Positions 3,001 to 6,000 of a stretch of 64,000 nt of DNA are shown here, in pieces (position 1 is the first letter of the stretch; each line of letters begins with the position of its first letter). Source of the DNA: Pecten maximus (taxonomy: Eukaryota). Made by a program: the position numbers. The stretch is from positions 40,176,001 through 40,240,000 of the forward strand of contig NC_047022.1 of NCBI RefSeq assembly GCF_902652985.1, written 5' to 3'.

Positions 3001-6000
3001 TCTCTATACTGAGTGACTGTCACTAGTGATATACAGTACTAATCTCTATACTGATTGACTGTCACTAGTGATATACAGTACTAATCTCTATACTGAGTGT
3101 CACTAGTGATATACAGTACTAATCTCTATACTGAGTGTCACTAGTGATATACAGTACTAATCTCTATACTGACTGTCACTAGTGATATACAGTACTAATC
3201 TCTATACTGAGTGACTGTCACTAGTGATATACAGTACTAATCTCTATACTGAGTGTCACTAGTGATATACAGTACTAATCTCTATACTGACTGTCACTAG
3301 TGATATACAGTACTAATCTCTATACTGAGTGACTGTCACTAGTGATATACAGTACTAATCTCTATACTGAGTGTCACTAGTGATATACAGTACTAATCTC
3401 TATACTGAGTGTCACTAGTGATATACAGTACTAATCTCTATACTGACTGTCACTAGTGATATACAGTACTGATCTCTATACTGAGTGACTGTCACTAGTG
3501 ATATACAGTACTAATCTCTATACTGAGTGACTGTCACTAGTGATATACAGTACTAATCTCTATACTGACTGTCACTAGTGATATACAGTACTGATCTCTA
3601 TACTGACTGTCACTAGTGATATACAGTACTAATCTCTATACTGACTGTCACTAGTGATATACAGTACTAATCTCTATACTGAGTGACTGTCACTAGTGAT
3701 ATACAGAACAGTACATAGTACCAGCCATTAGATGAGTCGTGCTCTGCAAGTCGAATGAAAGTAATAAAGTATTGAGTAAACAAAGGTTTATTTCAGTTGA
3801 ATCTGAATTTTTTTTTAAAAAGATGATAAATTCATATTATTATTTCATTCTGAAATTGATAATGAAAAGTATACAATTCAATATAAATCACAGGGATTTG
3901 GCACAATTTAATTCTGACCCTATGATTATCAAAATAAGGAAAAGTACAAAATTCAAGATACACTGTAGAGCACAGGGGTTTGGCACCATCAAATTATGTA
4001 ATACTGAAAAATAATGCAAAGCATAAAATTCAGGATCTTGGAACCAATTCTGAACCCATGGTCCCTAGCATATATTATCATGATATATATGGACCGTGGG
4101 TTGAGAATTTGTGTCAGGTCCCTGAGGGATCAATGGGATAATACACGCCACTAAATATGTTTCTGCATGCTTCCCTATACAACAGTTTGAGTTGAAATTG
4201 TTTTACTAACTTTTATTAAAGGTTTATCTTTTGTGTGCTTGAAAAATATAGATGGATTTAATTTATTGACAACTTTTCTCATAGCTGTTTCAAGCGGTAG
4301 TGCTATAACTATCAGTAGTGCTAGAAACCATAGTCCTTCTATATAATCTGTAGGACATATTTCTGAGGTTAGATTGAAAAATGTCGCCCTGCTGAAGATA
4401 ATGTAGAAATAATCAATATCAATACAACCCAGTACACCAACTCACAAAGGAAAAAAAAAGATTCCACAAGCTGTAGTGAAGATCATGCATGCCTCTTTAA
4501 ATTCTATGTTACTCTGCATTCTAGTTTTGCTTATCAAATAAAAATTTGTATGTGCATGTTTTCTGTATACATGTGTCTATCATAAAAAGGCATGTTGATG
4601 TATTTTACCAAATTGCTGAGTATGTGTAGAAGAAATAAGATGTGTCATATTTCATAAGCATATTCATTGGGAGATTTGGAAGTGCTACTTCTGTGTGTAG
4701 AATTGGAGACAGGGGCCAAACCAAGGACTGTTTATTAAATTCTCTGTTATAATGAGTTAAAAAGATAATATTCAGTCAGGAACAATACAGTACAACATTA
4801 AGGAAAGAAGTGATAGGATTGTGGTCAGAGCTAGTGATGAAGTACCAGATCACATGTCCAACTTAAGGCTGTATGCTACCTTTAATCATCACACTGTATG
4901 CATTTCCTATGAAAACAATTGTAACAATCCAAAAACTCTGCAGCAGTTTTATAATAAATAGCAATCAGAACTACATCAATGCTTTTTATTACTAATGATA
5001 ATACTAAGATTTGTTAGATCTCATTCAAGGGAGATAAATCTAATTTGTATCTTTTACATATTTATATCGTGCTGTATAAACATTAGACTAGCTGCTGATA
5101 TATATTGATTTCCTATGGATTCTATGCAGTCTTATAATGTGGAAATATTTTAAAACTATTTTTGTTGTTTTTATGGGTAAACAATTTGAAAGCTTTTTGG
5201 TATTCTTAAAAAAAAATGAAAAAAGTTAAAAACAAAATTGTATTGAAATATGTTTTTCCGAATCTTTCATTTATTATTTCATTCTTCTCTATTTTAGTGC
5301 CAGAAAACGTCCTGTACCATACTACCGGCCTGCTCCCCCCTCCCCGAGCTCTGTGAGCAGTTATGACTCGTACTACAGATACAGTCGCTCACGCAGTAGA
5401 TCCAGACCCCGGTATCGCTCACGCAGCAGGAGTTTCTCACGAACACGGCGACACAAGAGCTAACGCCTGGCATTTATCTGTTTAACTCAAACTCAATAAT
5501 GATGAAACAAGGAATATTTCATAAATAATTATAAGTTATTCTGTGTACTTAAATTATAACAATGTTTAGAAGTTATGATTATATGAATATTTATATCTAT
5601 AGATATGATTATTCAATAGTTATAATTACAGTTGTATAACAATGTTTCATAGTTTATGATAATAAGAATATTTCATAGTTCCAATGATAAGAATGTTTTA
5701 TAATTATGAAAATATCTCATAGTTATACTTACAATTTTTTAATAATTATAAGAATATGAAATGATTATATAAACTATAGTATACTGGAAGTAGTTGTGAT
5801 TCTCGGACAGTTATAGGTGCAATATTGATAAATGATAAGTTTTATAGTAATCTGATGTACTAACCATTGTACGATATTGATTACCAAATTACCTAGCTGG
5901 TATCATGTTTAAAAGAAGTTGTAATTATCATATTTATACAAAGTTCAATTTTCTGTCCTCATAGCCATTACAGAGTTTACTACCCACAGAGACATGGTAT

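What the first reader, a model, noticed from the sequence alone, without database searches (positions are those of the whole stretch)
5298..5463. eMIC-domain terminal exon of an invertebrate Srrm2/3/4 gene, missed by the ORF track
Seen: a clean acceptor followed by ARKRPVPYYRP and an RS tail; the leading T would complete a Ser codon (AG|T), as in ...RRITS-ARKRP. Known: eMIC of SRRM3/SRRM4 drives neural microexon inclusion, and in non-vertebrate bilaterians it is produced from the single Srrm2/3/4 locus by alternative 3' exon use. Inference: this lineage retains the neural microexon switch, and this distal exon behind a satellite-filled intron is likely tissue-restricted and easily missed by annotation.
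Basis: partly seen in the sequence, partly recalled or inferred. Interest (0 to 1): 0.7.

Follow-up and report, generated by a model that had tools for sequence, protein, structure and literature searches.

The report
Last eMIC exon of scallop Srrm234
This is the small final coding exon of a scallop splicing-factor gene (Srrm2/3/4 type) that supplies the tail of the domain known to switch on tiny neural exons in other animals; it is a correct but ordinary identification.

Summary
A strong splice acceptor (AG at 5296-5297) is followed by T (5298), 54 codons (5299-5460) and TAA (5461-5463). They read ARKRPVPYYRP, a P/S/Y stretch, then an RS tail. Eight named proteins carry ...RRITS|ARKRPVPY... 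near their C-end: seven molluscs and one amphipod. All eight match Pfam SRRM_C and five also carry cwf21. In the window, similarity starts exactly at the acceptor. No other Srrm-like exon lies in the 64 kb on either strand.

The exon holds only the last 11 of 67 SRRM_C positions plus the conserved tail, so the rest of the domain must be encoded upstream of the window. A neighbouring gene is 97.5-100% identical to Pecten maximus WSB1-like protein, so the DNA is king scallop or nearly identical.

Two claims could not be tested here: that upstream exons exist on the + strand, and that use of the exon is restricted to neurons. No eukaryotic genome or RNA-seq data was available. The eMIC domain of bilaterian Srrm234 genes is already described, and several mollusc annotations already include this tail. 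Verdict: a new member of a known kind, of low interest.

The parts
1..3706 (.). 38-bp satellite array (93.5 copies, 93% matches) running off the 5' end of the window. It is presumed to lie in the intron before the exon.
   Evidence: Its intronic position is inferred, because the preceding exon is not in the window.
3707..5261 (+). Unique AT-rich sequence between the satellite and the acceptor region. It holds no Srrm-like or RS-rich open frame.
5262..5295 (+). Polypyrimidine tract (28 of 34 bases are C/T). Branch-point-like TTCAT motifs at 5266-5270 and 5278-5282 were read by eye.
   Evidence: The branch points are inferred from the sequence only.
5296..5297 (+). Splice acceptor AG. Similarity to the homologues begins here.
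5298..5298 (+). Third base (T) of a split codon, giving a phase-2 intron. All 8 homologues have Ser at this position, which fits AG|T or TC|T.
   Evidence: The phase is inferred.
5299..5460 (+). 54 codons: ARKRPVPYYRP (SRRM_C profile positions 57-67), a conserved P/S/Y stretch, then an RS-rich tail.
5461..5463 (+). Stop codon TAA. It falls where 4 of 8 homologues (Solemya, Mytilus, Saccostrea, Haliotis) have the W of RR[KR]RSWS. Their tails after the junction Ser are 57-64 residues, against 54 here.
5464..6145 (+). Putative 3' UTR. The first + strand AATAAA sites after the stop are at 6041-6046 and 6140-6145.
   Evidence: This is not diagnostic: AATAAA occurs 116 times in the window against 102 expected by chance.

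Best explanation
Window 5298-5463 (+) is the last coding exon of the eMIC-bearing isoform of the scallop orthologue of Srrm2/3/4 ('Srrm234').

It is spliced through the AG at 5296-5297 to an upstream exon that lies outside the window. That exon should end ...SPSHLD(K/R)RRIT plus two bases of a Ser codon.

The exon adds the final 11 residues of the SRRM_C/eMIC core (ARKRPVPYYRP), a conserved Pro/Ser/Tyr stretch and an RS tail, and then terminates the protein.

By homology, the completed C-terminal domain would recruit early spliceosome factors (U2AF1/2, SF1) to weak 3' splice sites and promote inclusion of very short neuronal exons.

Shown here: the exon, its frame, its acceptor, its homology and its terminal position. 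Inferred: the upstream exons, the biochemical function, and regulated, neuron-enriched use of this exon as an alternative last exon, as in Drosophila. I put regulated use at roughly 0.5-0.6.
For: Exon anatomy.

Homology: the exon alone retrieves 3 of 3 hits that are bivalve proteins carrying both cwf21 and SRRM_C. A second search adds 4 gastropod proteins and 1 amphipod protein. All 8 read ...RRITS|ARKRPVPY....

Conservation: ARKRPVPYYRP is identical in 6 of 8, and the other 2 differ at one position. Identity over the first 28 exon residues is 16-25 of 28.

Pfam: exon residues 1-11 match profile positions 57-67 of 67. SRRM_C is found in 8 of 8 homologues at E <= 0.01, with 5 of 8 above the 27-bit cut-off. 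cwf21 is found in 5 of 8.

Junction: the Plakobranchus model has a 30-residue in-frame insert at the junction, and its SRRM_C match ends at profile position 56.

Similarity in the window starts at the acceptor and nowhere else. Every tblastn row with E < 0.01 falls within 5296-5466 on the + strand, for all 8 proteins.

Function and regulation of the domain come from passages of PMC8797185, PMC6800468 and bioRxiv 10.1101/2024.09.17.613571.
Against: The exon alone does not reach the Pfam cut-off (13.2 bits against 27, E 0.14).

No upstream Srrm exon or cwf21 exon could be looked for, because they would lie beyond the window.

No expression or junction data was available.

The tail ends 3-10 residues earlier than in the four homologues with the RR[KR]RSWS ending, and it loses that motif.

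The every-protein search found only 2 representatives at E <= 0.001, both unnamed and not examined. The language-model look-up gave only weak leads, with a best score of 0.83 and an SRRM4-fragment cluster at 0.80.

No protein with this exact tail was found, so there is no transcript-based confirmation for this species.
Confidence: 0.85

Rival explanations
1. The exon belongs to Srrm234 but is the gene's ordinary, constitutive last exon. It would be used in all tissues rather than as a neuron-restricted alternative last exon.
For: Four mollusc models of about 555 aa (Mytilus, Saccostrea, Haliotis X2, Lymnaea) join cwf21 directly to this tail. No proximal RS-rich alternative exon lies in the 5.3 kb before the exon.
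Against: In Drosophila the eMIC-closing exon is a distal alternative last exon used in neurons under Elav/Fne control, and the authors describe post-transcriptional restriction as the rule in non-vertebrate bilaterians (passages of PMC8797185). 'Isoform X2' labels in Haliotis and Aplysia show that other isoforms are annotated. The Plakobranchus model carries an extra cassette at the junction.
Confidence: 0.3
2. The exon belongs to a transcript or gene that lacks the cwf21 domain. This would be SRRM3/4-like, arising from an internal promoter or a lineage-specific duplicate, rather than the full Srrm234 protein.
For: Two of 8 homologue models (Aplysia 'SRRM4 isoform X2' and Plakobranchus) have unrelated N-termini without cwf21. 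They join the common sequence just after the cwf21 region.
Against: Five of 8 models have both domains. The two odd N-termini may be gene-model artefacts. Nothing in the window bears on this question.
Confidence: 0.1
3. It is an orphan or decaying duplicate of the terminal exon and is no longer spliced into any mRNA.
For: The tail is shorter than in the nearest homologues and lacks the RSWS ending. The region is dense in satellites. No database protein carries this exact tail.
Against: The frame is intact, the acceptor is in the top 0.2% of AGs in the window, and the exon has 56% G+C in 20-23% flanks. Up to 25 of the first 28 residues are conserved. The region after RRR[KR] also varies among the gastropod homologues, so a shorter end is no sign of decay.
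Confidence: 0.05
4. It is a chance open frame in RS-like low-complexity sequence.
For: With the low-complexity filter on, only the first 17 residues still align, at E 0.004 for one protein.
Against: The non-repetitive first 28 residues carry the match. E is 8e-8 against 5.8 billion proteins. The similarity boundary coincides with a strong acceptor.
Confidence: 0.01

Closest known systems
Drosophila melanogaster Srrm234 (CG7971) distal eMIC-encoding alternative last exon
   Same: The eMIC region is split between a 'first eMIC-encoding exon' and a distal terminal exon that completes it. The terminal exon is needed for function. The protein also has an N-terminal cwf21 domain (passages of PMC8797185 and its preprint; PMC6800468).
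   Different: In the fly a proximal non-eMIC exon with its own poly-A site lies between the two eMIC exons, and Elav/Fne control the choice. In the scallop window no such exon lies in the 5.3 kb before the exon, and nothing is known about its regulation. The fly sequence was not compared here.
Annotated mollusc Srrm2/3/4-type proteins: Mytilus edulis SRM300, Saccostrea echinata SRRM2-like, Solemya velum, Haliotis asinina X2, Lymnaea stagnalis, Aplysia californica 'SRRM4 X2', Plakobranchus ocellatus
   Same: The same ...SPSHLD(K/R)RRITS|ARKRPVPYYRP(S/T/A)P.. motif followed by an S/Y/RS tail. Identity over the first 28 exon residues is 17-25 of 28.
   Different: The scallop tail stops at the position of the W in RR[KR]RSWS. 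It has 54 residues after the junction Ser, against 57-64 in the bivalves and Haliotis and 108-260 (Q-rich extensions) in the heterobranch snails.
Vertebrate SRRM3 and SRRM4 (eMIC domain; Pfam SRRM_C, PF15230)
   Same: The same Pfam family. The exon's first 11 residues align to the last 11 profile positions. The domain is reported as necessary and sufficient for microexon inclusion and as binding U2AF1/2 and SF1 (passages).
   Different: In vertebrates these are separate genes that lack cwf21 and are restricted to neurons by transcription. In non-vertebrates a single gene is processed differently at its 3' end. No vertebrate sequence was fetched or aligned here.

Membership tests
Pfam SRRM_C (PF15230), the eMIC region of Srrm234/SRRM3/SRRM4 | Match to the family profile at or above the curated cut-off (27 bits) | tested here: inconclusive
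   The exon alone scores 13.2 bits (E 0.14), with residues 1-11 matching profile positions 57-67 of 67. An exon holding 11 of 67 positions cannot reach the cut-off. The match sits at the correct end of the profile.
Pfam SRRM_C (PF15230), the eMIC region of Srrm234/SRRM3/SRRM4 | Nearest full-length relatives are members of the family | tested here: met
   SRRM_C was found in 8 of 8 homologues at E <= 0.01. Five of 8 are above 27 bits (45.7, 51.4, 35.4, 51.4, 36.3) and three are below (23.1, 18.5, 25.2).
Pfam SRRM_C (PF15230), the eMIC region of Srrm234/SRRM3/SRRM4 | Conserved core ...RRITS-ARKRP(V/I)PYYRP at the C-terminal end of the protein | tested here: met
   The ARKRPVPYYRP half is present and lies 43 residues before the stop. 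It is identical in 6 of 8 homologues. The RRITS half would be encoded outside the window.
Non-vertebrate Srrm234 gene | The same gene encodes an N-terminal cwf21 domain upstream of the eMIC region | not testable with these tools
   No cwf21 or other Srrm exon lies in the window. The window starts inside the satellite. No eukaryotic genome collection was available. Among the homologues, cwf21 is present in 5 of 8.
Non-vertebrate Srrm234 gene | The eMIC-closing exon is used as an alternative last exon, enriched in neurons | not testable with these tools
   No RNA-seq or 3'-end data was available. The expectation rests on Drosophila.
eMIC domain (functional definition) | Promotes microexon inclusion and interacts with U2AF1/2 and SF1 | not testable with these tools
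   Known only from passages of the literature. No solved structure matches the exon (0 hits at E <= 1).

The most novel reading that the evidence does not exclude
In the king scallop the eMIC-closing exon has not been annotated. It sits behind an intron of more than 5.3 kb, of which at least 3.7 kb is a single 38-bp satellite. It is used only in ganglia (and perhaps the eyes) as a regulated alternative last exon. This would show that the fly-type 3'-end switch of Srrm234 is shared by Lophotrochozoa and Ecdysozoa, and so dates back to the protostome or bilaterian ancestor rather than being specific to insects.
Probability: 0.45. Interest if true: 0.35.

Novelty: new member of a known kind. Interest (0 to 1): 0.2.

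Why it matters
If confirmed, it corrects a likely gap in one scallop gene model. It also gives a handle for asking whether bivalves, which have small and dispersed ganglia, run an eMIC-dependent neural microexon programme. The junction into 5298 would serve as a direct read-out.

It does not change what is known. The eMIC domain is already described as a bilaterian-wide feature of Srrm234, and several mollusc annotations already include this tail.

Tried and rejected
Other Srrm exons in the window. tblastn of all 8 homologues found only 5296-5466 on the + strand. The remaining rows had E >= 0.26 at scattered sites and were judged chance. A scan for RS-rich open frames found only the exon itself and a simple repeat on the - strand near 49056.

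Poly-A signal. AATAAA is not enriched in the window (116 found, 102 expected), so the sites at 6041 and 6140 prove nothing.

Solved structures. There were 0 hits at E <= 1.

ESM Atlas. All scores were under 0.9, so they count as leads only.

Every-protein search. It gave 2 unnamed hits, at 73% and 67% identity. I did not fetch or use them, because their origin could not be told and a vertebrate or human origin could not be excluded.

Literature.
- The founding paper (Torres-Mendez et al. 2019, Nat Ecol Evol) is not held and is known to me only through citing papers.
- 'eMIC domain' together with 'mollusc' found 0 papers.
- One search was badly posed: any 2 of 6 terms matched, and none of the 15 listed papers contains 'eMIC domain'.
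- Of the 482 papers one search found, none of the 10 listed contains 'microexons' or 'Srrm'.
The 2019 paper and its supplement may already show mollusc eMIC sequences.

The Srrm exon was searched on its own, and the neighbouring WSB1-like gene was mapped piece by piece.

No structure or complex prediction was run. The region is a short, low-complexity tail, and a prediction would not have changed the verdict.

Full report
**Observation.** The sequence reads ...cattcttctctattttag|T GCC AGA AAA CGT CCT GTA CCA TAC TAC CGG CCT.... AG is at 5296-5297, T at 5298, 54 sense codons run from 5299 to 5460, and TAA is at 5461-5463. The peptide is ARKRPVPYYRPAPPSPSSVSSYDSYYRYSRSRSRSRPRYRSRSRSFSRTRRHKS. 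The stop-to-stop frame runs 5230-5463. The other two + frames close at 5356 or open only at 5357.

The acceptor is strong. Seventeen of the 20 bases before it are pyrimidines, which only 16 of the 7266 AGs in the window (both strands) match. The previous AG is 72 nt upstream. The exon is 56% G+C in flanks of 23% and 20%. An acceptor further upstream would bring the in-frame stop just before 5230 into the exon, so 5296-5297 is the only workable site.

With ordinary start codons the frame gives only a 36-aa ORF (5353-5463). That explains why an ORF listing with a 60-aa minimum does not show it. The window holds no N.

**Surroundings.** Positions 1-3706 are a single 38-bp satellite (93.5 copies, 93% matches) that runs off the 5' end of the window. 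The stretch 3707-5261 is unique and AT-rich and has no Srrm-like frame. An RS-rich open frame occurs nowhere else on the + strand of the window.

Downstream lie a 46-bp array (7566-9012) and a tRNA-Thr(AGT) at 14400-14473. After that comes a complete WD-repeat/SOCS-box gene in 8 tblastn pieces, 15540-30424 on the + strand. It is 97.5-100% identical to the Pecten maximus WSB1-like protein. The window is therefore king scallop DNA, or something nearly identical to it, and not human. The 3' UTR of the exon must end well before 15.5 kb. The first AATAAA sites after the stop are at 6041 and 6140, but that hexamer is not enriched in this AT-rich window.

**What it is.** Searched alone against longer proteins, the exon found 3 hits among 123 candidates. 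All three are bivalve: Solemya velum, Mytilus edulis 'SRM300' and Saccostrea echinata 'SRRM2-like', at E 8e-8 to 1e-4. My own Pfam scan finds cwf21 and SRRM_C in all three.

A second search used the C-terminal core of the Saccostrea protein and gave 8 hits among 36 candidates. It added Haliotis asinina isoform X2, Lymnaea stagnalis, Aplysia californica 'SRRM4 isoform X2', Plakobranchus ocellatus and the amphipod Hyalella azteca. All 8 read ...SPS(H/F)LD(K/R)RRITS|ARKRPVPY... close to their C-end.

ARKRPVPYYRP is identical in 6 of 8, and the other two differ at one residue. Over the first 28 exon residues the identities are Mytilus 25, Solemya 23, Saccostrea 23, Haliotis 21, Lymnaea 18, Plakobranchus 18, Aplysia 17 and Hyalella 16. 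SRRM_C is detected in 8 of 8 (5 above the 27-bit cut-off) and cwf21 in 5 of 8.

The exon by itself scores 13.2 bits (E 0.14) and covers profile positions 57-67 of 67. It therefore encodes the closing piece of the domain and the tail, not the whole domain. The other 56 positions must be encoded upstream.

**The junction.** tblastn of all 8 proteins against the window hits only 5296-5466 on the + strand. Similarity begins at the acceptor, and the AG plus the T happens to read as the Ser codon. The frame upstream of the AG (KQNCIEICFSESFIYYFILLYF) bears no likeness to ...SPSHLDKRRIT. This excludes a retrocopy and fits an intron at this point.

The Plakobranchus model gives independent support. 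It carries 30 extra residues exactly between RRIT-S and S-ARKRP, with Ser at both ends, and its SRRM_C match stops at profile position 56. That is what an in-frame cassette flanked by two phase-2 introns would produce. This is an inference from a protein model.

**A difference from the homologues.** The scallop stop falls where Solemya, Mytilus, Saccostrea and Haliotis have the W of RR[KR]RSWS. The tail is 54 residues against their 57-64. The heterobranch snails diverge at the same point into long Q-rich extensions, so this end is variable. I do not read the shorter tail as decay.

**How it most likely works.** The following comes from passages of published papers, not from tests done here.
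- The eMIC domain arose in the ancestral bilaterian Srrm234 gene.
- It contacts U2AF1/2 and SF1 to promote early spliceosome assembly (PMC8797185; bioRxiv 10.1101/2024.09.17.613571).
- In non-vertebrates its expression is restricted to neurons post-transcriptionally.

The scallop exon corresponds to that distal closing exon. I infer that it completes the eMIC region of scallop Srrm234, and that its use is probably regulated. Neither regulation nor function was tested.

**What could not be checked.**
The window starts in the satellite and the only genome collection on offer holds bacteria and archaea.
- Any expression data.
- Torres-Mendez et al. 2019, which is not held, and all supplements, which are closed. 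Mollusc sequences may already be shown there.
- Two unnamed hits of the every-protein search (73% and 67% identity). I did not fetch them because their origin is unknown.

No protein with this exact tail, and no pectinid Srrm protein, appeared. This is weak evidence that the exon is unannotated in scallops. One search covered only proteins of 96-2000 residues, and both word-based searches can miss relatives.

**Comparison and verdict.** The exon works like, and by sequence belongs with, the C-terminal eMIC tail of Srrm234, SRRM3 and SRRM4. Membership of the gene family stays formally incomplete until the upstream exons are seen. The phenomenon is known and several mollusc annotations already carry it. 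This is a new member of a known kind: correctly spotted, and of low general interest (0.2).

Noticed in passing
window 15540-30424 (+): A complete WD-repeat and SOCS-box (WSB1-like) gene in 8 tblastn pieces, 97.5-100% identical to the Pecten maximus protein P0010. This identifies the window as king scallop or nearly identical.
   Followed up: yes
window 26612-27353 (+): A 59-bp tandem array (12.6 copies, 95% matches) begins inside the last 19 nt of a WSB1-like exon (piece 26517-26630). Each unit repeats 'tttacag TCTGTGATGATGG gtaagt', which is an acceptor-like site, 13 nt, and a donor-like site. The intron therefore carries about a dozen pseudo-microexon copies.
   Followed up: partly
window 14400-14473 and 14668-14732 (+): A tRNA-Thr(AGT) found by both Rfam (47.4 bits) and ARAGORN, and a second, weaker tRNA-like match (33.3 bits, Rfam only). 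Both lie between the Srrm exon and the WSB1-like gene.
   Followed up: no
window 38126-39694 (+): A reverse-transcriptase fragment (Pfam RVT_1, E 1e-16, profile positions 93-203 of 205), followed after one stop by a 168-aa frame with no Pfam match. It is probably a decayed non-LTR retrotransposon.
   Followed up: partly
window 1-3706, 7566-9012, 43273-44938, 45660-48200, 50014-52250, 52716-55347, 56977-58105, 58884-60501, 61378-64000: Unusually dense, mutually unrelated tandem arrays with units of 20-59 bp and 86-97% matches. They fill most of the last 21 kb and create long spurious open frames in several frames.
   Followed up: no
proteins P0007 (Aplysia) and P0009 (Plakobranchus), not in the window: Two of 8 homologue models replace the cwf21-bearing N-terminus with unrelated sequence and join the common sequence just after the cwf21 region. 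This is either an internal promoter giving an SRRM4-like isoform or a gene-model artefact. P0002 (Solemya) is fused to a glyoxalase-domain protein at its N-end, which is probably a merged gene model.
   Followed up: partly
protein P0009 residues 582-611, not in the window: A 30-residue RS-rich in-frame insert lies exactly at the RRITS|ARKRP junction of the Plakobranchus model. It may be a cassette exon in the intron that corresponds to the one before the scallop exon.
   Followed up: partly
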